Of a stretch of DNA of 64,000 nt, positions 2,593 through 48,514 are shown one piece after another; position 1 is the stretch's first letter, and every line of letters begins with the position of its first letter. Origin of the DNA: a virus; UHGV virus genome UHGV-0090440, one strand, 5' to 3'. Under the pieces are notes generated by a model. That model had not been told where the DNA came from. It saw only the letters and a list, made by a program, of their open reading frames with translations, and made no database searches. The position numbers were made by a program, and so were the translations under genes.

Positions 2593-2626
2593 TGTGTTAG
2601 AAAATATGCGTTAATTATCTAACACA
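2593..2626. promoter_or_regulatory. paired operator-like motifs (TGTGTTAGAAAAT ... ATCTAACACA) upstream of the rdgC-like gene
   Basis: Inverted pair of the dispersed TGTTAGAAA / TTTCTAACA motif, 10-40 nt upstream of the rdgC start on the minus strand. Confidence 0.45.
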
Positions 2627-9444: not shown

Positions 9445-10068
9445 ATGAAGGATGGTGTAGTGAAGTTAAGGGCTTTAGGGGCCGCGCTCGCGGCTATGTT
9501 GGGATGCGTATCTGCTAATACTGCCAATGCAACTGCGTTACCTGCACAATTCAGGGCAGGGCAGCAGGTTATGAATAACGCTGGTGGAGATCATTCACAA
9601 GCGGCCATTATGGACTTTTGCAAGAGGGAGGGCATTCCATTACGGCCTGTTGGAACTCAGTTTATTGGTAAAACTGACTTTTGCGTTTTTGCATATACAG
9701 CATATCTGACGGACAAAGCTATAACAAAAACAGGTTATTCAACCAAAGATACTCTTTCCAGATTAAGTCAGGGATGGCAGCAATTCGAAGTGTATCGCCA
9801 GCAAGGATTAGGTGAGTTATTGCAACCTCTTTTTATGCTTGCGTTGGTGCCAGAGGGGCAGCAATTTTTGGTTAAAAAGGGAATGCTTCGCCAAAGTGAT
9901 ATTGCCGGGTTCGATAGCATGATGGCTTATGAGCGCAAACTAACCGAGCAGCGAAATAAAAAACCATCTGCTTCATGTGTGCAAAGTAAAACAGCAGAAT
10001 ACAGTGCAGTAGCCGGGCCTTTAGCCAAACAAATGGCAGAGCAATGGTGTAAAAAATACGGGCAATAA
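9445..10068 (+). CDS. secreted protein of unknown function
   Basis: N-terminal signal-peptide-like segment (LRALGAALAAMLGCVSANTANA); preceded by an AT-rich intergenic region. Confidence 0.45.
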   Translation: MKDGVVKLRALGAALAAMLGCVSANTANATALPAQFRAGQQVMNNAGGDHSQAAIMDFCKREGIPLRPVGTQFIGKTDFCVFAYTAYLTDKAITKTGYSTKDTLSRLSQGWQQFEVYRQQGLGELLQPLFMLALVPEGQQFLVKKGMLRQSDIAGFDSMMAYERKLTEQRNKKPSASCVQSKTAEYSAVAGPLAKQMAEQWCKKYGQ

Positions 10069-10088
10069 GTTACGCAGCGGAGGCAGAA

Positions 10089-10481
10089 TTGAAAAGATTG
10101 GCTATTGCTTTACTGGCGTCTTTCCCTTTGATCGCGAGCGCCGGAAATTTACAAGTTAAGTGCGGTCGGTTTGATATAAAAATCTATCCAGATGCCATAT
10201 TTCTGAATGGGAATAAGGTTGATAACGCACACCGAAAAACTGAATCTGACGTAATGAGCTATGTGTTCCAGGAGTATGCGGAGATGGGGGGAACTTACAC
10301 GCTGTACTCGCTGGATGTTCCTTCTCGCGGTGATATGACATTATCCCATCAATGGCAGAACGCCGATGGCGAAGCTCTGCGCGAGGTTAAAACAGAAAAA
10401 TGTGGCACTTTCCATTCTTTTAAAGGGAAAGCGCCAAATGTTAAATCTGTGCTTGAAAAACAGCGCGCAGGTGAGCTTTAA
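10089..10481 (+). CDS. secreted protein of unknown function
   Basis: Signal-peptide-like N-terminus MKRLAIALLASFPLIASA; RBS GGAGG 8 nt upstream. Confidence 0.45.
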   Translation: MKRLAIALLASFPLIASAGNLQVKCGRFDIKIYPDAIFLNGNKVDNAHRKTESDVMSYVFQEYAEMGGTYTLYSLDVPSRGDMTLSHQWQNADGEALREVKTEKCGTFHSFKGKAPNVKSVLEKQRAGEL

Positions 10482-11367
10482 ACACCTTTAACCACGGAGA
10501 TGCCGTTCCCTGCACGATAGCGGCGGGGAACGGAATTCTCCATCAGGTCACGAATTACTCCCGCCTCATGTAGTTCCACTGTTTCCCAGTATCTGTTTGT
10601 CGCCAATTACGCCCCGTTCCGCCAGGGGAAGGTATGAACGAGCTTCTGCTTCGGTTGCAGCCATGACGCAGATATACAGGTGTTTTTGGCAGGAATAGAA
10701 ACGCCAGATAAATTCAGAATGAGTTGGGGTGGGGATAGTAGCGATATTGGCAGCCTCCTTTGACTAAGTTAAGGAGCTACCGCGTGAGGTTCCAATCCCG
10801 GCACCCGTTTTTCTAAGGTGCCGTAGAAATATACCCCACGATAAGGCCAGGGCGCAAAAGTCAGTATTTTATGCTTTGGCGGATTTCTTCCGGGCTTGCT
10901 TGCAGGCGTAGGCCATTGCTTTAGCTTTCACTTCATCCAGCTTCCCGGTGATCACTTCTTTTCCGAGAGTGACAAACCAGTCATAGCAACCGCCAGTGAT
11001 GTTCTGGATTTGAAAGTTGAGGTAGCGAACGGTCATTTTGACACCCCCAGCGCGAGTAAAGAATGCAGATTATCGCGTGAGTGGCGGACAACGAGTGACG
11101 GGAAAAGACAGTAGCTGTTCATAGTGTAGTGACTCCTTGCTTTCGGAGCCGCCATCGACTGTTCCACGGTCTGGTGGCGGCGCAATAAAGGCTGGAACAC
11201 CGTGAGTCAACGGGGGCTTTTCAGCCACCTATATTGCACCGCCATAGGTATGGCGGCGGCAATAATACGAAAAACTATACAGTTTGTCTCAAAAAGTTGA
11301 CCGGTGTGCCAATCGGTAGTGAATGTACATCGGAGAAATTTATAATTCAACTTAAAATGTTAGAAAA

Positions 11368-11943
11368 CTAATTCATCAATTCAATCGCCATCTGATACAA
11401 CGTCATTTCATCAGCATTGTGCCGCCTGAAATCTGCTTTACCGCCTATTTTTCCATCAGCATGAACAGGAACCAACCAGGGGTATTGCTCGCGGATCTCT
11501 GCTGGCGCTGCGTGTTGATGGTGCCATTTACACAAAGGGAGGACGTATTTATGCGCGTTCTCTGCTGTTCTTCCGAAGATGTGGTGCAGGGATACCACAG
11601 GGCTATGCTGTCCGTGCATATGGCAGGCAATGCAGGGGAGAGCACCGATGGCAGTTTGTATCCGGCGCTCATCTGCTGTGAGTGTTCTGCCTTTCAGGCC
11701 GCGTGACGCGCGAGTTTTTTTGACAGGAGCAGAAGCGGCCTTCTCTTTTCTTCGCTGTTCATATTGCTTCGCTTTTTCAATTTTCTTTTGACGATATTCA
11801 GGCGATGCGGCTTTTTCTCGCGCACGCTGCTGCTGGCGTTGAGCTTGCTGAAGACGCTTTGCCCTTTGTTCCTCCCGCCATTTCGGATCAGCCAGTTTTT
11901 GCAGGGCTTTTTGTGTCTGTTTCTCCCAATAGCTTTGCTTCAT
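11368..11943 (-). CDS. ref: Ref-like HNH endonuclease
   Basis: Basic, low-complexity N-terminal region followed by an HNH-type core (CIACHMHG...SLHHIFGR...LPLCKWHH), the architecture described for P1 Ref. Start taken at the first ATG (MKQSYWEK). Confidence 0.55.
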   Translation of the reverse strand: MKQSYWEKQTQKALQKLADPKWREEQRAKRLQQAQRQQQRAREKAASPEYRQKKIEKAKQYEQRRKEKAASAPVKKTRASRGLKGRTLTADERRIQTAIGALPCIACHMHGQHSPVVSLHHIFGRTAENAHKYVLPLCKWHHQHAAPAEIREQYPWLVPVHADGKIGGKADFRRHNADEMTLYQMAIELMN

Positions 11944-11987
11944 AGAAATACCCGGTTTGTCTACATAGCCGCTATGGTTGATCAAAC

Positions 11988-12020
11988 ATGTTAGAAAATC
12001 AAAATTGATTTTCTAACACA
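11988..12020. promoter_or_regulatory. perfect inverted pair of operator-like motifs
   Basis: TGTTAGAAAATC-aaaatt-GATTTTCTAACA: 12-bp perfect inverted repeats, in the divergent region between the ref-like gene and the plus-strand gene block. Confidence 0.5.
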
Positions 12021-12214
12021 AAATGAAGATACTTTTTTCAGACGCTATATCAGGAGGTCATGATGCTTGTCGCAATTAGTGCAATCCACCAGCAATCCGG
12101 TACAGAAATTGGGTTGCTATATGTCCTGTTTTTCACTGTCCTGGCGTTGTTTGAGCTGGGCATTGAACTCTTTGCTCTCATCAACTTTTGCGTAACGTTC
12201 CTGGGGAAACTTTG

Positions 12215-12826
12215 ATGTCAAAACGCATTATGAAAATTTACATCGCGGGGCCGATGACTGGTTATCCCGGCTACAACCGCACAGCGTTTTTTTCGAAAGC
12301 AAAAGAGCTGATGGAGGTAGGGCATATTGTTCTGAATCCGGCGCTGTTACCTGCTGGCCTCTGCGAGAGCGAATACATGGATATTTGCCTTGCAATGGTG
12401 CGTTCGGCTAATGCGGTCTATTTGCTCAAGGGGTGGGAGGAATCAGTTGGCGCTCGTGCAGAGCACGAGCTGGCTCAAAAGCTGGGGCTGAATGTAATTT
12501 ATGAGTCACCAACCAACATTGAATGCCAGGTTGCTCCGCATATTTACCGGGAACTGGTCAATGCACTGCGTGATATCGCTGCTGTATATCACGGCACAGA
12601 ACAGCTTCGTGAGCGCTTAGCCCATACCATTTCCTATTACCTTTCTTTATCTCATGAGCACAAGCTCCGCCAGAAGGTAATGATCAAATTTATCATGAGG
12701 TTATCGAAATCCCTGGCAAACGCCGATCCAAAGAATCCATTACCGAAAGAGGCAATGAATTACCTAAAGTCCTGCAACGTTGTTTCTGAAGATGGCGTTC
12801 TTTTGGTTAGAAGGAGTTCTGCGTGA
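12215..12826 (+). CDS. DUF4406-like (nucleoside 2-deoxyribosyltransferase-like fold) protein
   Basis: KIYIAGPMTGYPGYN motif near the N-terminus is the DUF4406 signature as I recall it; ATG 12215 has a GGGGAA RBS. Confidence 0.45.
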   Translation: MSKRIMKIYIAGPMTGYPGYNRTAFFSKAKELMEVGHIVLNPALLPAGLCESEYMDICLAMVRSANAVYLLKGWEESVGARAEHELAQKLGLNVIYESPTNIECQVAPHIYRELVNALRDIAAVYHGTEQLRERLAHTISYYLSLSHEHKLRQKVMIKFIMRLSKSLANADPKNPLPKEAMNYLKSCNVVSEDGVLLVRRSSA

Positions 12827-13140
12827 GCTGGCGGGGATGGGGAAGGGCAGAAATCATGATACTCCGCCAGTGCGCCGGGACTATGACAGTCGAGGGTATT
12901 GGGAGACTGATCGGGCGTACCGGTGGTGCTGTCAGGACTAAAGCGCGGCAACTGCGGATCAGCATGATTCTGAAAGGAGACTTTCATCCGTCAGCCAAAT
13001 ACCGGCAGAGCGATATAGAACTGGCACGGCAGCTTCATCAGTGTGGTGTTCCCCGCCGTGAGATCGCAGAAAAACTCGAAATGCCCCTGGGAATGATTAA
13101 TCAGTACGTTTATTTCGAAAGGAGAGTACATGAAGTCTGA
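12823..13140 (+). CDS. hypothetical small DNA-binding-like protein
   Basis: 105-aa ORF overlapping the neighbouring stop; HTH-like segment VEGIGRLIGRTGGAVRTKARQL. Confidence 0.3.
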   Translation: MSWRGWGRAEIMILRQCAGTMTVEGIGRLIGRTGGAVRTKARQLRISMILKGDFHPSAKYRQSDIELARQLHQCGVPRREIAEKLEMPLGMINQYVYFERRVHEV

Positions 13141-16349: not shown

Positions 16350-16380
16350 CGTTAGAACGTTGATTTTAGTTTTCTAACAT
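16350..16380. promoter_or_regulatory. operator-like motif pair
   Basis: GTTAGAACG ... TTTTCTAACAT, 40-70 nt upstream of the 16422 gene. Confidence 0.4.
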
Positions 16381-26232: not shown

Positions 26233-26264
26233 TAACTTTAAATAATGCCAATTATTTAAAGTTA
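26233..26264. promoter_or_regulatory. rox-like recombination site (lox analogue)
   Basis: TAACTTTAAATAAT-GCCA-ATTATTTAAAGTTA: perfect 14-bp inverted repeats around a 4-bp spacer, about 150 bp upstream of dre. The arm shares TAACTT with loxP (ATAACTTCGTATA) and the site matches the published rox sequence as I recall it. Confidence 0.8.
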
Positions 26265-26447: not shown

Positions 26448-26460
26448 ATGTTAGAAAACT
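26448..26460. promoter_or_regulatory. operator-like motif ATGTTAGAAAACT
   Basis: 14 nt upstream of the 26474 start codon. Confidence 0.4.
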
Positions 26461-26473
26461 AAATCGCGTAGGA

Positions 26474-27514
26474 ATGATGAGTATGAAGTCGATCGAGAAA
26501 GAGTACAAACGGTTCCTGCAAACCGCAGAACGGTGGAAAGAGCTGGTGGTCGCAAACTCTGTTTTCCATGATACCAGTTATGCTGGTGAGGAATTCCGCC
26601 ATGTTGCATTAACGCATGACCAAAACATATTAGAAGAAGCTGAAAAATGTCTTGCTGAATGGAAAGCCTTCGTTGACATGTGCCGCGATGCCGACGGCAA
26701 AGCGTCGAACATTGTTGAGTCCGTATATTCTCCGATCCCATTCATCATTGAGGACACCAATCAAAGCACGCATGTCGTTGTGCAAAGCGCTACAACAACA
26801 CGTGCATTTACACGTGAACAATTGCTAAAAAAATACGACAAAATCATAAAGAAAAGCCTGAAAAATAGGGTTTTTTCTCAAATCGTAGGTGCTCTTGAAG
26901 AAGAACAGCGCTTCTTTGAAGCTGAGCCTGAAGGCGAGATCTACCGGGCGCGTAAAGAGGCATATACAGATGTTGTGCTGACAACAAACATCGAAGGCAG
27001 TAATGCCCTTTCTCGCTTTAGAGTTGGCGCACATGGCGCATTGGTTTTCGCAAGACTACCGAAGACAACGATCCCCGTTGTCAATAATGTTGGTGAACGC
27101 CGGAGCATTACAATTTATTCTGGCGTCGAATCGGTACCTTGCAGCCTTCTCGGCGATTTTAACTTATATCGTGTTCGTGACCTGGAAAAACACCAGCCAA
27201 GCTACGTTGCGAAGTCGTATATCTTAAGGAACATCGATATTCGCAATGAAAGCCTTAAGCAGAAATCCGCTAAGATGCTGGAGGATGCCGATCCGGCTAT
27301 TCGCCATATCATTGAGCGTAAGATACGTACATCACGTGAAGCAATGGCAAGGCTGGATAAAATGGATCTGGAATTGTTAGACGTAATGATGGCCTCTGGA
27401 GACGACCTGACCGGCATTAAACTGAATGAAGCTCGTAAAAAATACGGCAAAGCAATCGAAGAACGTTACGGATACACATTCCCCCAAACGCAGTACGCCG
27501 CGAAGCTCTGGTAA
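26474..27514 (+). CDS. hypothetical protein divergent from dre (possible regulator; function unknown)
   Basis: 346-aa ORF with an operator-like motif directly upstream; no recognisable similarity to P1 C1. Confidence 0.4.
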   Translation: MMSMKSIEKEYKRFLQTAERWKELVVANSVFHDTSYAGEEFRHVALTHDQNILEEAEKCLAEWKAFVDMCRDADGKASNIVESVYSPIPFIIEDTNQSTHVVVQSATTTRAFTREQLLKKYDKIIKKSLKNRVFSQIVGALEEEQRFFEAEPEGEIYRARKEAYTDVVLTTNIEGSNALSRFRVGAHGALVFARLPKTTIPVVNNVGERRSITIYSGVESVPCSLLGDFNLYRVRDLEKHQPSYVAKSYILRNIDIRNESLKQKSAKMLEDADPAIRHIIERKIRTSREAMARLDKMDLELLDVMMASGDDLTGIKLNEARKKYGKAIEERYGYTFPQTQYAAKLW

Positions 27515-30879: not shown

Positions 30880-30911
30880 TGTATTAGAAAATTAATACTA
30901 AATATCTAACG
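30880..30911. promoter_or_regulatory. operator-like motif pair
   Basis: GTATTAGAAAATT ... ATATCTAACGC, upstream of the 30803 gene / pacA operon. Confidence 0.4.
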
Positions 30912-32322: not shown

Positions 32323-32398
32323 CAACCAAATATGGTGGCCCCTACCGGACTTGAACCGGTGACCGTGCGATTATGAGTCGCCAGCTCTAACCACTGAG
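32323..32398 (-). tRNA. trnI: tRNA-Ile (anticodon CAT, lysidine type) - could alternatively be Met
   Basis: 76-nt cloverleaf ending CCA; anticodon loop CTCATAA; close to E. coli ileX (GGCCCCTTAGCTCAGTGGTTAGAGCAGGCGACTCATAATCGC...) from memory. Confidence 0.7.
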
Positions 32399-32562
32399 CT
32401 AAAGGGCCAGATTACTGTTAATTCCGCTTACGCTTTTTGCCAGGACCGCGTAAGGCTTTTGCTGCTTGCTCGACCCCATATACAACCACCAGCAGAAATA
32501 AAAATGTCCACCAAGGGTTCTTATCGGCAAACGTCCAAAATTCCATCATGTTCTCTATTTGG

Positions 32563-33390
32563 TTATTTCACCGGAACAAACGGAACAGCGGTATTACTGG
32601 TCATATACTGCGGTAGCGTTCCGTTCCATTTGTTGATCGCTTCCAACTCCATAACGCCGGGGTTCTGGCGCAGAGCCTCACCGCGTAAACGAATGGCATC
32701 AGCTTCAGCCTGGGCTTTTGTGCGAATGGCATCGGCCTGTCCGGCAGCTTCTGCGCGCAGCATGTTGGCTTCTGCTTCGCGTTGCTTGACTTCCTGCTCG
32801 CGTTGCAGAGTTTTCTGGTTCGCCGTGACTTTGGCATTAATGCTGTCGATAACGGTTGGCGGGTACTCCGGCTTGCCCACATATGAGAGGCTCATTACCT
32901 GAATACCGATGGGCGTCATTTCTTCCTGGATGTCTTTAAGAGCTGCATCCAGTAGTTCAGACTTGCCACCGTCGATAAATTTGTCGGTGGTCATTTTGCT
33001 GGCCAGTCGGTTAAGTGCGTCGGCAATCTTCTGGCGCAGATCGGTGTCGGTAATGTCATCCACGCCTTTGCGGTAGGTCTGAAATACAGTTGTGACTTTT
33101 GCCGGATCAACCTTGTAAGCTACACCAATGTGGTAACCAATTGTTGTCCCGTCGCTCATTTGGAAGCTGAACGGATCATCATAGGTCTTCATTTGCTTAA
33201 AGGTCGGGAAGATATAAACTTCTGTGTTCCAGCCTGTCCAGTAGCGACCAACGCCAACTACTTCGCCGACACCTTTATCATCCCCCAGCTTATTTACTTT
33301 GATCCCTACATTGCCTGGTTCTACCCGGTCGCATCCGGTCAGACATAAAGAACCAAAAATAATCGCTGCACTAATCAACGTTTTTTTCAT
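32563..33390 (-). CDS. plp: SPFH/band-7 domain lipoprotein (Plp-like)
   Basis: Signal peptide with lipobox LTGC; SPFH-like core; coiled-coil C-terminal region (QREQEVKQREAEANMLRAEAAGQADA). Confidence 0.6.
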   Translation of the reverse strand: MKKTLISAAIIFGSLCLTGCDRVEPGNVGIKVNKLGDDKGVGEVVGVGRYWTGWNTEVYIFPTFKQMKTYDDPFSFQMSDGTTIGYHIGVAYKVDPAKVTTVFQTYRKGVDDITDTDLRQKIADALNRLASKMTTDKFIDGGKSELLDAALKDIQEEMTPIGIQVMSLSYVGKPEYPPTVIDSINAKVTANQKTLQREQEVKQREAEANMLRAEAAGQADAIRTKAQAEADAIRLRGEALRQNPGVMELEAINKWNGTLPQYMTSNTAVPFVPVK

Positions 33391-33607
33391 TAATCAATTT
33401 CCTGGTTTTTTCACGAAAAAAGACTACTGCAAAAGCCGGGTAAATGAGCGCGAGAAGGACTCCCAACAATACAAGTATTGTGCTGTCAGATGAGATCATA
33501 TTTGGCAAAAGCCAAACATACAGAACCAGTGACACAATCAAACAGAGGACGGCATAAATATATAGCCGCACCCATAGCGTTCGACATTTGTTCGGATTGT
33601 TCTGCAT
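33371..33607 (-). CDS. upl: small membrane protein upstream of plp (Upl-like)
   Basis: 78 aa with two hydrophobic helices; overlaps the plp start. Confidence 0.45.
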   Translation of the reverse strand: MQNNPNKCRTLWVRLYIYAVLCLIVSLVLYVWLLPNMISSDSTILVLLGVLLALIYPAFAVVFFREKTRKLINEKNVD

Positions 33608-33754
33608 CCTCTCACTCCATTATTCAACGAATAAAAAAGCTGCGGTGCCTGGTGCCTCCAGGTGACGTTAACCAGTTAACAATTAACGCCGGGATGTTTG
33701 ATTTAACCACTACGGAGGATTGTTTTAACTGTTCCGCGTGCGCTTAGCCGCATT

Positions 33755-33869
33755 CACCGCAATGGTAAGAGCACTTGGCTGGCTGGGCGGCGATGACGCC
33801 TGTACGCATTTGGTGATCCGGTTCTGCTTCCGGCATTCGCTTAATTAGCCAAATACTCTTAACGTTGCG
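33755..33869. repeat. long imperfect hairpin element U1
   Basis: Arms ccgcaatggtaagagcacttgg / ccaaatactcttaacgttgcg; abuts the 3' end of the tRNA-Ser-like gene. Confidence 0.4.
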
Positions 33870-33956
33870 CTGGCGGAGAGTAATGGAATCGAACCATCAT
33901 CGCTTGCGCAATGGGACGGTTTTCAAGACCGCTTGAGCACCATGCTCCCTACTCTC
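33870..33956 (-). tRNA. tRNA-Ser-like (anticodon TGA), class II, atypical D-arm
   Basis: Acceptor GGAGAGT/ACTCTCC with discriminator G and CCA; anticodon arm GCGGT-CTTGAAA-ACCGT nearly identical to E. coli tRNA-Ser(UGA); long variable arm; T-loop TTCGATT. The D-arm is short and irregular, so it may be a tRNA-like RNA or pseudogene. Confidence 0.4.
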
Positions 33957-34081
33957 CAATTGTTGTGGTTACCGGTACTGATCTCCGGCTTAGCGACCCC
34001 GGCTACTGACTGCATTGCAGTGTGTGAACTCGCCTCGTGTGTCGCTGGGGCATTTCTTTCCGCGCATCAGTCTGCGCATCA

Positions 34082-34158
34082 ACCACAACGGAAAGAGCAT
34101 TGGCTAACCAGGCTCGCCGACTCTTCACGATTATCGGCCCAATGCTCTTACCTGTTGT
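34082..34158. repeat. long imperfect hairpin element U2
   Basis: Arms ccacaacggaaagagcattgg / ccaatgctcttacctgttgtg (about 20 bp stem) around a 34-nt loop. Confidence 0.4.
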
Positions 34159-34340
34159 GCGCTCCGTTTCGTGGAGCTAACGGCGGGTGATCGGGCCGCA
34201 CCAGACTGGACTTATTTCAGCGTTATGCTCATGCCAGAGAATCAAACTGTGATGGTCGGTGCTGAACTCCGACACAGGGTTGTAGCAAGCCCCGCAAAGC
34301 GCGCACTACTGTAGTTGCGGCACATCAGCCTGTGCATTCA

Positions 34341-34435
34341 CCACAATGTTGAGAACACTGGTTGTCACGCTGCCTCGCGACCTTTATTCATAGATTGGGA
34401 TATGACCCCGTTACGCCAATGTTCTCAACGTTGTA
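34341..34435. repeat. long imperfect hairpin element U3
   Basis: Arms ccacaatgttgagaacactgg / ccaatgttctcaacgttgtag; stem differs from U2/U4 by compensatory changes. Confidence 0.4.
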
Positions 34436-34574
34436 GTGCCGGTTACGGTTCCGGCCAGGCTTCTTCCTCAACGGGGTGTTCTCCATACGGACTACCGTTT
34501 ATTGGTCGTTCCTGCGGTTTATGTTGTGAAGCCAGATGCTTATCTTCTGGTTGCTTCAAAGAGCTGCACTTCAT

Positions 34575-34661
34575 CACAACGGTAAGGGTACTTCGTAGGG
34601 ATTCGAACCCTCTGCCAAGCTCGGCGATCTCCGACGTCGCAAAATACCCTTACCTGTTGTG
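34575..34661 (-). ncRNA. hairpin element U4: long stem enclosing a tRNA-like T-arm (candidate small stable RNA)
   Basis: Arms cacaacggtaagggta / tacccttacctgttgtg; the loop on the minus strand contains AGGG-TTCGAAT-CCCT, a canonical T-arm. Lies directly 3' of tRNA-Thr on the same strand. Confidence 0.35.
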
Positions 34662-34662
34662 T

Positions 34663-34738
34663 TGGTGCCGGTTAACGGACTCGAACCGCTGACATCCTGC
34701 TTACAAGGCAGGCGCTCTACCAACTGAGCTAAACCGGC
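34663..34738 (-). tRNA. trnT: tRNA-Thr (anticodon TGT)
   Basis: 76-nt cloverleaf: acceptor GCCGGTT/AACCGGC, D-arm GCTC-AGTTGGTA-GAGC, anticodon loop CTTGTAA, T-loop TTCGAGT, 3' CCA. Confidence 0.75.
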
Positions 34739-34742
34739 AATT

Positions 34743-34829
34743 TGGTGGGGAGTGATGGAGTCGAACCACCCGAGTCGCAATGACAGTAGATTTACAGTCT
34801 ACCCCGCTGCCCCTACGGACTAACTCCCC
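34743..34829 (-). tRNA. tRNA-Tyr (anticodon GTA), class II
   Basis: Acceptor GGGGAGT/ACTCCCC, anticodon arm GTAGA-CTGTAAA-TCTAC (identical loop to E. coli tRNA-Tyr), long variable arm, T-loop TTCGACT, CCA end. Confidence 0.55.
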
Positions 34830-34834
34830 TAAAT

Positions 34835-34909
34835 TGGCGATGGTGGGTGGATTCGAACCACCGACCAGTTGGTTAACAGCCAACTGCTCTACCGCTGAGC
34901 TACACCATC
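34835..34909 (-). tRNA. trnA: tRNA-Asn (anticodon GTT)
   Basis: 75-nt cloverleaf: acceptor GATGGTG/CACCATC, D-arm GCTC-AGCGGTA-GAGC, anticodon arm GTTGG-CTGTTAA-CCAAC, T-arm GGTGG-TTCGAAT-CCACC, CCA. Confidence 0.75.
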
Positions 34910-46811: not shown

Positions 46812-47467
46812 AAAAAGCCCCGACCAGGCCGGGGCATCACGCTTCAAGTCACGATCCAATCATTACCGACTATATCAGCCGTCGATAAATCAACTTCCCG
46901 GATCTGGAGTCCATCAGTGTGCCTCCGCAATGCTGGGATTGGTAATATTGCGATACCAGGGATTAGTGTTTGGTTGTGGGGAAGTAGAGAAACGACCAGT
47001 AAGAACACCATACTGATCAGGGATCAGAGAACGGGCTTCTTTTTCGGTTGCGGCAATTGCGAAGTGATCGCAGTGTTTTTGCAGGGAGTGGAAACGCCAG
47101 ATGAATTCTGGACGTGAGCAAGGATTGGCATTAACCATAGTTACGGCCTCACTAACAGGTTTAACAACCTGCTACCCGCTGTCAAACAGGTGGCAGGACG
47201 TGACAGGGTTGACAGACTGGCGTTAGTGAAACCAGCAGGCCGAAGCCTCCCCATCACGCCCCACCATAATTCGGGCGTAACGCGATTTACGGACACAAAA
47301 ATACCGCAATATCGGAAATCTGCGGTTGTCCGCACTAACATTCAGGCTGTCAAACCTGGTCGCAGAATTTGCTACGACGGCATTAATATAAGCCTGAAAA
47401 CATGGAAGATCAACTAAAAATTTCAGCAATGGATGACTTCAGTCGATGATGCAGATCATACATTCCG

Positions 47468-47498
47468 ATTTAGAAACAGGAAATTAATTTTCTAATAC
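47468..47498. promoter_or_regulatory. operator-like motif pair
   Basis: TTTAGAAACA ... TTTTCTAATACA. Confidence 0.35.
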
Positions 47499-47551: not shown

Positions 47552-48514
47552 TCATCCCCTAAATCCCGCAGGGATTGACCAATCCTCCCGGTCAAATTCA
47601 GACCGATAGCCACGCTGTTTCATCAGGTCAAAGGCTTCACCAATGGTTGCACACCCCTGGGAGCCAGAATAATCCATTGAGAAATCCAGGACACTGGATT
47701 GTTTAGGCTTATTCACTGCGGTAGCGGCACTACGTATCCATGCAAATTTTTTTGCCAGCTTTTCAGCGGTACGATACAGAGCCTGCCGTTTTGCGTGCCC
47801 CTCGTCTGAACGACGCTTTGCAGCTCTCGCTTTTGCCGCCGCCAGGCAGCGGTTGGTATGTTCTTCCCTGATTACTGGTTTTTTATCCAGCGCCCCATTA
47901 TCCGCTTGAGAACTATCTGCTGGTGAAGCCTTTGGCTGAACCGCGCATGATCTTTCTCTTCTTTTTGCTATAGAGTGACTCTTATTTTCTATTGGCTGTT
48001 CATTTTGAACATGGGGGGACTTGTTCAAAATGAACAGGGGGTTCCCAGTTTCAAAAAAATAACGAACCTTTGAAATCAACTGCTTAACCAGTTTTGTGGC
48101 GTTGGCAAATTTGATGCCCTGCTTACCCCCTATCTCCATTGCTGCATGAATGAAGTGGAGAAATTGTGTCGTAAACCGATATACGTTACACACCTGGGCA
48201 TTGTTATTCGCTACCTGATGTTGCCTAACAAGCATTCCGCACTTCGTCGCTTCAGCAAATGCCCGGCGTACAGTAGAAATACTGCGTCCTGTAATCTCGG
48301 ACATATCAGCATATGAGCGACGGATCATGTATTCATCGGTAGCCCCTGCCAGGTTGGCGAACTCGGCAATAATAGCGCTATGTGAAGGGGAAAGAAGACC
48401 GCTATGACGAGCAAAAAAACTCAACTGATGACCTTTGATTTTTTTGTGGTATTCAGTGTTGTTTTTATACTCAGAAGTGTTGAAAGTTACTGAAACTGAA
48501 TTTAAAATATTCAT
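47552..48514 (-). CDS. hypothetical HTH-containing protein (possible replication or regulatory protein)
   Basis: HTH-like segment MSEITGRSISTVRRAFAEATKCGML; basic C-terminal half. Confidence 0.35.
   Translation of the reverse strand: MNILNSVSVTFNTSEYKNNTEYHKKIKGHQLSFFARHSGLLSPSHSAIIAEFANLAGATDEYMIRRSYADMSEITGRSISTVRRAFAEATKCGMLVRQHQVANNNAQVCNVYRFTTQFLHFIHAAMEIGGKQGIKFANATKLVKQLISKVRYFFETGNPLFILNKSPHVQNEQPIENKSHSIAKRRERSCAVQPKASPADSSQADNGALDKKPVIREEHTNRCLAAAKARAAKRRSDEGHAKRQALYRTAEKLAKKFAWIRSAATAVNKPKQSSVLDFSMDYSGSQGCATIGEAFDLMKQRGYRSEFDREDWSIPAGFRG

What the first reader, a model, noticed from the sequence alone, without database searches (positions are those of the whole stretch)
11368..12020. 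Ref-like HNH nuclease directly under a perfect operator palindrome
In P1, Ref is a RecA-dependent programmable nuclease and is repressor-controlled. Here a Ref-like gene sits next to the strongest copy of the TGTTAGAAA operator pair.
Basis: partly seen in the sequence, partly recalled or inferred. Interest (0 to 1): 0.4.

Follow-up and report, generated by a model that had tools for sequence, protein, structure and literature searches.

The report
Repressor-controlled Ref nuclease gene, D6-like prophage
This is the ordinary, already-annotated ref gene (a RecA-dependent DNA-cutting enzyme) of a D6-like plasmid prophage of E. coli, sitting next to a two-part binding site for the phage's own lysogeny repressor, just as ref does in phage P1.

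Summary
Both the observation and the interpretation hold, but the feature is ordinary. The window is a D6-like phage-plasmid, collinear with Escherichia phage D6. The gene at 11368-11943 (-), 191 aa from its ATG, is a clear Ref homologue: Pfam RecA_dep_nuc E=2e-36, P1 Ref structure 3PLW E=1e-52, 92% identical to D6 Ref and 55% to P1 Ref. The Zn-coordinating active-site histidines, the Cys residues and a charged N-terminal tail are conserved.

The palindrome at 11989-12018 is perfect (14+2+14) and not expected by chance. Its core TGTTAGAAA occurs 11 times in the window against 0.6 expected. In D6, 11 of 12 copies are intergenic (P~1e-10). They lie where P1 has C1 operators: upstream of c1, c4-icd-ant, repL and ref.

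Refinements:
- The palindrome lies in a divergent intergenic region. It probably controls both ref and a rightward early operon, through back-to-back TTGATT -35 boxes.
- A second, single operator overlaps the ref stop codon and heads a degenerate c4/icd module.
- The perfect palindrome is a minority allele; in five of the seven relatives aligned the ref-side arm is mismatched.

Repression and RecA dependence are inferred, not shown. The same region is on plasmids in 99 of 5,426 complete E. coli genomes and is annotated as Ref there. Interest is low.

The parts
11368..11943 (-). ref homologue, 191 aa plus stop. It has a charged N-terminal tail of about 79 residues and a C-terminal HNH (His-Me finger) nuclease domain.
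   Evidence: Pfam PF16786, 124.7 bits. PDB 3PLW, E=1.2e-52. 92% identical to D6 Ref and 55% to P1 Ref, with P1 C96/C99/C130/H133/H134/H136/H153 all conserved. The N-terminal 79 residues hold 25 K+R and 9 D+E; published P1 figures are 25+ and 9- in 76 residues. The ATG start agrees with PGAP in NZ_CP029365.
11989..12018 (.). Perfect 30-bp palindrome, read as a bivalent repressor operator made of two inverted 14-bp half-sites with a 2-bp gap. It lies between ref and the divergent rightward operon.
   Evidence: The right arm is invariant in 8 related sequences although both flanks are replaced by unrelated sequence, which is a phylogenetic footprint.
11974..12002 (-). Candidate sigma-70 promoter of ref (inferred). 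The -35 is TTGATT (12002->11997), the spacer is 17 nt, and the -10 is AACCAT (11979->11974). The ref-proximal half-site covers the -35 and the spacer.
   Evidence: Read directly from the sequence. The -10 block ATGrTTGATCAA is conserved across both flank alleles. It matches only 7 of 12 consensus positions and was not reported by the consensus scan.
12005..12033 (+). Candidate sigma-70 promoter of the rightward operon (inferred). The -35 is TTGATT (12005-12010), the spacer is 17 nt, and the -10 is GATACT (12028-12033). A GGAGG ribosome-binding site follows, then the ATG at 12060.
   Evidence: Read directly from the sequence. It matches 8 of 12 positions and was not reported by the scan. The downstream genes are an orf88 homologue and a DUF4406 protein.
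11358..11371 (+). Monovalent operator copy TGTTAGAAAACTAA. It overlaps the ref stop codon and lies 7 nt upstream of a candidate -35 on the minus strand (TTGAAT 11350->11345; -10 TACATT 11327->11322).
   Evidence: Zero mismatches to the consensus. Invariant in 8 relatives, including the divergent RL465 plasmid II. P1 Oc4 sits in the same way just upstream of, and touching, the -35 of P2c4.
11170..11249 (-). C4-like antisense RNA of a degenerate second immI module, downstream of ref on the same strand.
   Evidence: Rfam RF01695 C4, 40.2 bits, E=9e-6 in a 1.7-kb search, below the gathering score of 45. An Icd-like ORF follows at 10745-10584. PMC6799933 reports a second antisense-RNA/icd region in the D6-like plasmid pYU39_89.
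26474..27514 (+). c1-like prophage repressor gene (346 aa), the presumed protein that binds the TGTTAGAAA operators. It has its own operator copy at 26449-26462.
   Evidence: Collinear with D6 orf1, annotated 'prophage repressor, similar to P1 C1'. NCBIfam phage_rep_C1 scores 25.7 bits, E=7e-6, far below the cut-off of 500. BLASTP against P1 C1 gives 21% identity over 267 aa, E=3e-8. The operator copy lies 25 bp upstream of the ATG.

Best explanation
The window is a D6-like plasmid prophage. The gene at 11368-11943 (-) encodes its Ref protein. Ref has a charged, disordered N-terminal tail that binds DNA, and a C-terminal Zn-dependent HNH nuclease domain that, as in P1, cuts DNA only where RecA filaments are bound.

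The gene is read from a weak sigma-70 promoter (-35 TTGATT, -10 AACCAT). This promoter is embedded in a 30-bp perfect palindrome made of two inverted TGTTAGAAAATCAA half-sites. That palindrome is a bivalent operator for the prophage's C1-type repressor, encoded at 26474-27514.

In the lysogen two repressor molecules occupy the palindrome. They cover the two back-to-back -35 hexamers and shut off ref leftward. They also shut off the orf88/DUF4406 early operon rightward. When the repressor is inactivated, both are expressed. Ref then adds RecA-dependent DNA damage that reinforces SOS and the lytic switch, as shown for P1.

A second, single operator overlaps the ref stop codon. It belongs to the next transcription unit, a c4-like RNA and icd-like remnant.

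Shown here: Ref family homology, conserved active-site residues, the palindrome, the statistics of the motif, its intergenic distribution, and its conservation. Inferred: the identity of the binding protein, the promoters, repression, and RecA dependence.
For: Ref identity:
- Pfam RecA_dep_nuc, E=2e-36.
- 3PLW, E=1.2e-52.
- 55% identity to P1 Ref, with all Cys and His of the nuclease core conserved.
- N-terminal charge 25+/9-, as in P1.

Context:
- collinear with phage D6, whose record annotates this gene as 'Ref-like RecA filament endonuclease'.

Operator:
- 11 copies of the core against 0.59 expected.
- 11 of 12 D6 copies are intergenic in a genome that is 10.2% non-coding (binomial P=1.4e-10).
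- monovalent sites, plus four bivalent sites that share the same 14+2+14 geometry.
- the half-sites are conserved while the flanks are replaced.
- Copies lie upstream of c1 (26449), of the canonical c4-icd-ant module (47484), of repL (48688) and of lpa (30882). The P1 record places C1 operators at Oc1, Oc4, OrepL and Oref. P1 also has bivalent operators such as Oc1ab.

Function in P1:
- PMC4713147: ref is a C1-repressed lytic gene, and H134/H153 are the Zn-coordinating active-site residues.
Against: - No experiment links the C1-like protein to TGTTAGAAA. The protein is only 21% identical to P1 C1, and the motif bears no resemblance to the P1 operator.
- Both candidate promoters are weak (7 and 8 matches of 12) and were not called by the consensus scan.
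- The ribosome-binding site in front of the ATG at 11943 is poor (GGG), unlike the AAGAGG in D6.
- In five of the seven aligned relatives the ref-side arm carries two or more mismatches, so tight bivalent binding is not a general requirement.
- The P1 attenuator-like GC hairpin with a T-run just before the ref ATG is absent here, so the regulation is not identical to P1's.
Confidence: 0.85

Rival explanations
1. The palindrome is essentially the operator and promoter of the rightward early operon (orf88, DUF4406 and downstream genes). Ref is merely adjacent: it is transcribed from another signal or only weakly, and is not itself repressor-controlled.
For: The rightward promoter candidate is the better one: TTGATT-17-GATACT followed by a strong GGAGG ribosome-binding site. 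The arm on that side is invariant in all relatives, whereas the ref-side arm is degenerate in most.
Against: The ref-side half-site still keeps the TTAGA core in every relative. The putative ref -10 block next to it is conserved across two otherwise unrelated flank alleles. The gap between the palindrome and the ref ATG is only 46 bp, which leaves no room for an independent promoter. P1 ref is C1-controlled.
Confidence: 0.1
2. The TGTTAGAAA sites are bound by a regulator other than the C1-like protein. Candidates are another phage DNA-binding protein, such as the small HTH-like protein at 12823-13140, or a host factor. Alternatively the sites are structural DNA sites such as iterons or partition sites.
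For: No direct evidence ties the sites to C1. The C1 homology is remote. The sites are AT-rich, as are sites for nucleoid proteins.
Against: The sites are dispersed singly or in pairs in promoter regions around the whole genome. They are not clustered like iterons or parS. One lies 25 bp upstream of c1 itself, and the others lie at the homologues of P1's C1-controlled units. Conservation of a 9-bp exact core is too strict for H-NS or IHF-type binding.
Confidence: 0.04
3. The palindrome is a chance or structural inverted repeat, for example a bidirectional terminator or a recombination site, with no regulatory role.
For: It is one of three long perfect inverted repeats in the window. One of the others is the rox recombination site.
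Against: Its arms are copies of a motif repeated 11 times. The flanking genes diverge from it rather than converge on it. It is AT-rich, has a 2-nt gap, and has no T-run or GC stem of the terminator type (one search lists no terminator there).
Confidence: 0.01

Closest known systems
Ref (orf87, YP_009914764) of Escherichia phage D6, and the 'Ref family recombination enhancement nuclease' genes of D6-like plasmid prophages (e.g. WP_112031931 on NZ_CP029365, pYU39_89)
   Same: Same gene at the same position in a collinear genome. The protein is 92% identical to D6 Ref, and the DNA is 99.1% identical to NZ_CP029365. The divergent DUF4406 operon and the 3' operator/c4-like module are the same.
   Different: D6 and most relatives have an imperfect palindrome (ref-side arm TTAGATATTCAA), a different 5' leader with a stronger ribosome-binding site, and a start two codons longer. 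D6 Ref has Tyr at the position of P1 H136, where the window has His. This window has also lost the antirepressor downstream of the c4/icd copy.
Bacteriophage P1 Ref with operator Oref (former Op2a)
   Same: - HNH nuclease core with conserved Zn-binding and active-site residues, plus a charged N-terminal tail.
- The repressor operator overlaps the ref promoter.
- A further operator overlaps the ref stop codon (Omat in P1).
- The genome-wide operator set is a mix of monovalent and bivalent sites.
   Different: - Only 55% identical, and the N-terminal tail is not alignable in part.
- The operator sequence is unrelated (TGTTAGAAAAyTAA against ATTGCTCTAATAAATTT) and is bivalent rather than monovalent.
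- The repressor is only 21% identical.
- There is no attenuator-like hairpin before the ATG.
- The neighbours differ: cre/c8 and mat in P1, a divergent DUF4406 operon and a c4-like RNA here.
P1 bivalent C1 operators (e.g. Oc1ab, Oban)
   Same: Two inverted copies of an asymmetric repressor site form a near-palindrome over a promoter.
   Different: In P1 the two 17-bp sites overlap and span 28 bp in total. Here two 14-bp cores are separated by 2 bp and span 30 bp, and they cover two divergent -35 hexamers.

Membership tests
Ref / RecA-dependent nuclease family (Pfam PF16786) | Significant match to the family profile above the curated cut-off | tested here: met
   124.7 bits against a cut-off of 26.9, E=2e-36, covering profile positions 2-102 of 103.
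Ref / RecA-dependent nuclease family (Pfam PF16786) | Sequence homology to the solved P1 Ref nuclease core (3PLW) | tested here: met
   phmmer E=1.2e-52, aligned over residues 41-205 of the 205-aa ORF against residues 10-183 of the chain.
Ref / RecA-dependent nuclease family (Pfam PF16786) | Zn-coordinating active-site histidines (P1 H134 and H153, plus a third His) and the structural Cys residues | tested here: met
   P1 H134 and H153 correspond to H142 and H161. P1 H113, H133 and H136 and C96, C99 and C130 are also conserved. The roles of the residues are taken from PMC4713147.
Ref / RecA-dependent nuclease family (Pfam PF16786) | Highly charged N-terminal DNA-binding segment of about 76 residues | tested here: met
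   The 79 residues before SRGLKGR hold 25 K+R and 9 D+E. The published P1 figures are 25 positive and 9 negative in 76 residues (PMC4330346). Disorder itself was not predicted.
Ref / RecA-dependent nuclease family (Pfam PF16786) | Nuclease activity that requires RecA filaments on the DNA | not testable with these tools
   This is a biochemical property. It is inferred from 55% identity to P1 Ref.
P1-type C1 repressor / operator immunity system | Encodes a C1-family repressor | tested here: inconclusive
   NCBIfam phage_rep_C1 scores 25.7 bits, E=7e-6, far below the equivalog cut-off of 500. BLASTP against P1 C1 gives 21% identity over 267 aa, E=3e-8. This is a remote homologue, not an equivalog. 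The gene order (cre-like gene, rox site, c1, pacB) matches P1.
P1-type C1 repressor / operator immunity system | Operators match the P1 17-bp consensus ATTGCTCTAATAAATTT | tested here: not met
   The consensus here is tRTGTTAGAAAAyTAA. The P1 sites read are unrelated in sequence. The system works like P1 immunity but has a different specificity.
P1-type C1 repressor / operator immunity system | Many dispersed operators, monovalent and bivalent, at the promoters of c1, the immI operon, the lytic replicon, ref and other early genes | tested here: met
   for the sites. for the P1 positions (Oref, Omat, Oc1a-e, Oc4, OrepL, Orlf).
P1-type C1 repressor / operator immunity system | The repressor binds the operator and represses ref | not testable with these tools
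   Needs EMSA or footprinting, or a reporter assay.

The most novel reading that the evidence does not exclude
The D6-type C1 homologue has evolved a completely different operator specificity (tRTGTTAGAAAAyTAA). I found no description of this motif in the annotated D6 record or in the searchable literature.

In this allele a perfect 30-bp palindrome with back-to-back -35 boxes would act as a high-affinity bidirectional switch. Together with the single operator about 620 bp away at the ref stop codon, it could enclose the toxic ref gene in a repression loop, comparable to C1/Lxc looping in P1.

On this reading the perfect-palindrome allele is a recombinant variant selected for tighter silencing of ref.
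Probability: 0.1. Interest if true: 0.3.

Novelty: already known. Interest (0 to 1): 0.1.

Why it matters
It matters little beyond annotation. The result confirms that D6-like phage-plasmids keep the P1 logic of holding the potentially toxic RecA-dependent nuclease Ref under the lysogeny repressor. These elements are on plasmids in about 2% of complete E. coli genomes.

As a by-product it gives a usable operator consensus (tRTGTTAGAAAAyTAA, with monovalent and 14+2+14 bivalent forms). That consensus maps the repressor regulon of this phage-plasmid family.

This could help in three ways:
- annotating early genes;
- predicting immunity groups among D6-like plasmids;
- interpreting phage-antibiotic synergy, because P1 Ref enhances ciprofloxacin killing.

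Tried and rejected
- The TTG-extended 205-aa ORF (to 11985) was rejected as the reading frame in favour of the ATG at 11943. The extension would run into the operator, has no ribosome-binding site, and PGAP uses the ATG in the near-identical plasmid.
- The sigma-70 consensus scan found no promoter in the ref/orf88 intergenic region. The promoters proposed are hand-read sub-threshold matches.
- I considered that the operator at the ref stop codon is the equivalent of P1 Omat, which controls mat. I rejected this because mat lies elsewhere in D6-like genomes, and the downstream unit here is a c4-like RNA with an icd-like ORF. The better analogue is therefore P1 Oc4.
- Rfam at gathering thresholds finds no RNA between 10400 and 12100. 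Only the relaxed search gives the sub-threshold C4 hit.
- I could not read Gilcrease & Casjens 2018 (the D6 genome paper) or Lobocka et al. 2004 (the P1 genome paper). Neither is held, so I cannot say whether the D6 operator motif was already published.
- Full-text searches for the motif and for 'D6-like' with 'operator' and 'repressor' found nothing relevant.
- The terminator and recombination-site readings of the palindrome were rejected.
- I ran no large protein database search and no structure prediction, because the PDB and Pfam matches were already decisive.

Full report
**What the window is**

A megablast of 11000-12300 finds Escherichia phage D6 at 87% identity over the full length. 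The matching gene there is annotated 'Ref-like RecA filament endonuclease, similar to P1 gene ref'. A whole-window BLAST against the 91,159-bp D6 genome shows collinearity at 78-98% identity. The matches run from the dmt/hrdC region through ref, cre, the rox site, c1, pacAB, darB, repL and the tail-fibre genes. The window is therefore a D6-like plasmid prophage.

The same 951-bp region occurs on 112 PLSDB plasmids from Escherichia, Salmonella and Shigella. It is also present in 99 of 5,426 complete E. coli genomes, always on plasmids and never on the chromosome. RefSeq names the gene 'Ref family recombination enhancement nuclease' there.

**The gene**

- The mechanical ORF is 11368-11985 (-), 205 aa from a TTG.
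- The ATG at 11943 gives 191 aa. PGAP uses this start in the 99.1% identical plasmid NZ_CP029365.
- The protein matches Pfam PF16786 (RecA_dep_nuc) at 124.7 bits (cut-off 26.9), over 101 of 103 profile positions.
- It matches the crystallised P1 Ref (3PLW) at E=1.2e-52.
- It is 92% identical to D6 Ref and 55% identical to P1 Ref.

Every Cys and His of the P1 nuclease core is conserved: C96, C99, H112/113, C130, H133, H134, H136 and H153. P1 H134 and H153 correspond to H142 and H161 in the window protein. In P1 these are Zn-coordinating active-site residues, and their replacement inactivates the nuclease (PMC4713147; PMC4330346).

The 79 residues before the conserved SRGLKGR contain 25 K+R and 9 D+E. 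P1's DNA-binding tail has the same charge count, 25 positive and 9 negative in 76 residues. RecA dependence is inferred from homology only.

**The palindrome**

The arms are 11989-12002 and 12005-12018. They are 14 nt each, perfectly complementary, with a 2-nt gap. Only three perfect inverted repeats in the window have arms of at least 14 nt and a gap of at most 10 nt. The other two are the lox-like rox site and a repeat inside repL. None of 30 Markov shuffles produced one.

**The motif as an operator set**

TGTTAGAAA occurs 11 times in the window against 0.59 expected, and 0 of 100 shuffles reached that count. Aligning the copies extends the consensus to about tRTGTTAGAAAAyTAA.

In D6, where a full annotation is available, 11 of 12 exact copies are intergenic although only 10.2% of the genome is non-coding (binomial P=1.4e-10).

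Copies in the window, with D6 gene names:

| Position | Location |
|---|---|
| 26449 | 25 bp upstream of the c1-like gene |
| 47484 | upstream of the canonical C4 RNA/icd/ant module |
| 48688 | upstream of repL |
| 30882 | upstream of lpa |
| 2595/2611 | upstream of hrdC-dmt |
| 16366 | upstream of the pdcB-like gene |
| 25037 | upstream of the operon below cre |
| 11989/12005 and 11358 | at both ends of ref |

The P1 record places C1 operators at the corresponding units: Oc1a-e, Oc4, OrepL, Oref and Omat. It also distinguishes monovalent from bivalent operators.

Here four sites are bivalent with one fixed geometry, 14+2+14: 2595-2624, 11989-12018, 16350-16379 and 30882-30911. The ref site is the only one of the four whose two arms are identical.

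The presumed binding protein (26474-27514) is a remote C1 homologue. It scores 25.7 bits against NCBIfam phage_rep_C1 (cut-off 500) and is 21% identical to P1 C1 (E=3e-8). That fits an operator sequence unrelated to P1's.

**Conservation**

I aligned the ref/orf88 intergenic region from the window, D6 and six plasmids. Two unrelated flank alleles appear on both sides of the palindrome. The palindrome core persists in both, and the arm distal to ref is invariant.

The ref-side arm is TGTTAGAAAATCAA only in the window-type allele (the window, NZ_CP029365 and pMUB-MIN14-1). In the other allele it is TTAGATATTCAA with variable upstream bases. About 11 of 112 PLSDB plasmids and 22 of 99 genome records are at least 95% identical to the window region. 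The perfect palindrome is therefore a minority allele.

The single site at the ref stop codon is invariant in all eight sequences, even where its surroundings diverge.

**How it probably works (inferred)**

The centre of the palindrome reads AATCAA-AA-TTGATT, which is two back-to-back TTGATT -35 hexamers.

- Leftward: TTGATT (12002->11997), a 17-nt spacer, then AACCAT (11979->11974). The ref ATG follows 31 nt later. The -10 block is conserved in both flank alleles.
- Rightward: TTGATT (12005-12010), a 17-nt spacer, then GATACT (12028-12033). A GGAGG site and the ATG at 12060 follow. That ATG opens a small ORF followed by a DUF4406 gene and further early genes.

Each half-site covers the -35 and spacer of one promoter. 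Repressor bound to both would silence both directions. The two promoters are sub-threshold matches (7 and 8 of 12) and the consensus scan did not report them.

In P1 the monovalent Oref lies between the -35 and -10 of P2ref. ref is induced when C1 is inactivated, inhibits lysogenisation, and boosts SOS and ciprofloxacin killing (PMC4713147).

**What lies beyond the 3' end of ref**

The operator at 11358-11371 lies 7 nt upstream of a TTGAAT-17-TACATT promoter candidate on the minus strand. A C4-like RNA follows at 11170-11249. It scores 40.2 bits against Rfam C4, E=9e-6, below the gathering score of 45. After it come homologues of D6 orf86 and orf85 and an Icd-like ORF.

This mirrors P1 Oc4, which touches the -35 of P2c4 ahead of c4-icd-ant. 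It matches the 'second antisense RNA/icd region' noted in pYU39_89 (PMC6799933).

In this window the D6 antirepressor, simB and orf80 are missing, and 9497-10625 is unrelated DNA.

**Differences from P1**

- The operator sequence and valency differ.
- The repressor is only remotely related.
- There is no attenuator-like GC hairpin with a T-run before the ATG (compared).
- The neighbouring genes differ.

**Verdict**

The refinement is that the palindrome is a shared, bidirectional operator. The feature is an already-annotated gene in a well-sampled phage-plasmid family and follows the P1 paradigm.

The only element possibly not yet described is the D6-type operator consensus. I could not check that against the D6 genome paper, which is not held. 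Interest is low.

Noticed in passing
window 10570-11371 (- strand): A degenerate second immI-like module lies directly downstream of ref. It comprises the operator at 11358-11371, a C4-like RNA at 11170-11249 (Rfam C4 40.2 bits, below the gathering score of 45), homologues of D6 orf86 and orf85, and an Icd-like ORF whose C-terminus diverges from D6 Icd. The antirepressor that follows in D6 is absent. The C4-like RNA may therefore be an orphan antisense RNA.
   Followed up: partly
window 9497-10625: This segment is not present in D6 and replaces D6 simB, orf80, most of pmgF and ant. It carries two plus-strand ORFs, 9445-10068 (207 aa) and 10089-10481 (130 aa). Both have hydrophobic N-termini that look like signal peptides, and neither has a Pfam or NCBIfam match.
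   Followed up: partly
window 2595-2624, 16350-16379, 30882-30911: Three further bivalent operator-like pairs share the same 14+2+14 geometry as the ref palindrome, each with one imperfect arm. They lie upstream of hrdC-dmt, the pdcB-like HNH gene and lpa respectively.
   Followed up: partly
window 46917-47497 (- strand): This is the canonical immI module. It has an operator-like site at 47484-47497, the c4 a1/b1 targets at 47339-47391 (Rfam RF03163, 51.5 bits), the C4 antisense RNA at 47186-47271 (RF01695, 68.8 bits), and then icd (47138-46917). An ant1 homologue was searched for by tblastn and not found in the window at E<=1e-3.
   Followed up: partly
window 47996-48037: A perfect 16+16 inverted repeat with a 10-nt GC-rich spacer (CTGTTCATTTTGAACA...TGTTCAAAATGAACAG) lies inside the repL gene. 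It is the longest perfect inverted repeat in the window and a candidate element of the lytic origin oriL, which in P1 lies within repL.
   Followed up: no
window 26233-26264: A perfect 14+14 inverted repeat with a 4-nt spacer (TAACTTTAAATAAT GCCA ATTATTTAAAGTTA) lies between the cre-like recombinase gene and c1. It corresponds to the rox (lox-like) site annotated in D6.
   Followed up: partly
L005 30001-30579 (D6 ref) compared with window 11368-11943: D6 Ref has Tyr (WHHQY) where P1 (H136) and the window protein (H144) have His. If this His is the third Zn ligand, the D6 reference protein itself might be impaired while the window allele keeps the P1 state.
   Followed up: no
window 32336-34909 (- strand): Four tRNA genes were called by Rfam, three of them clustered at 34666-34909 and one at 32336-32408. 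They correspond to the tRNA cluster annotated in D6.
   Followed up: no
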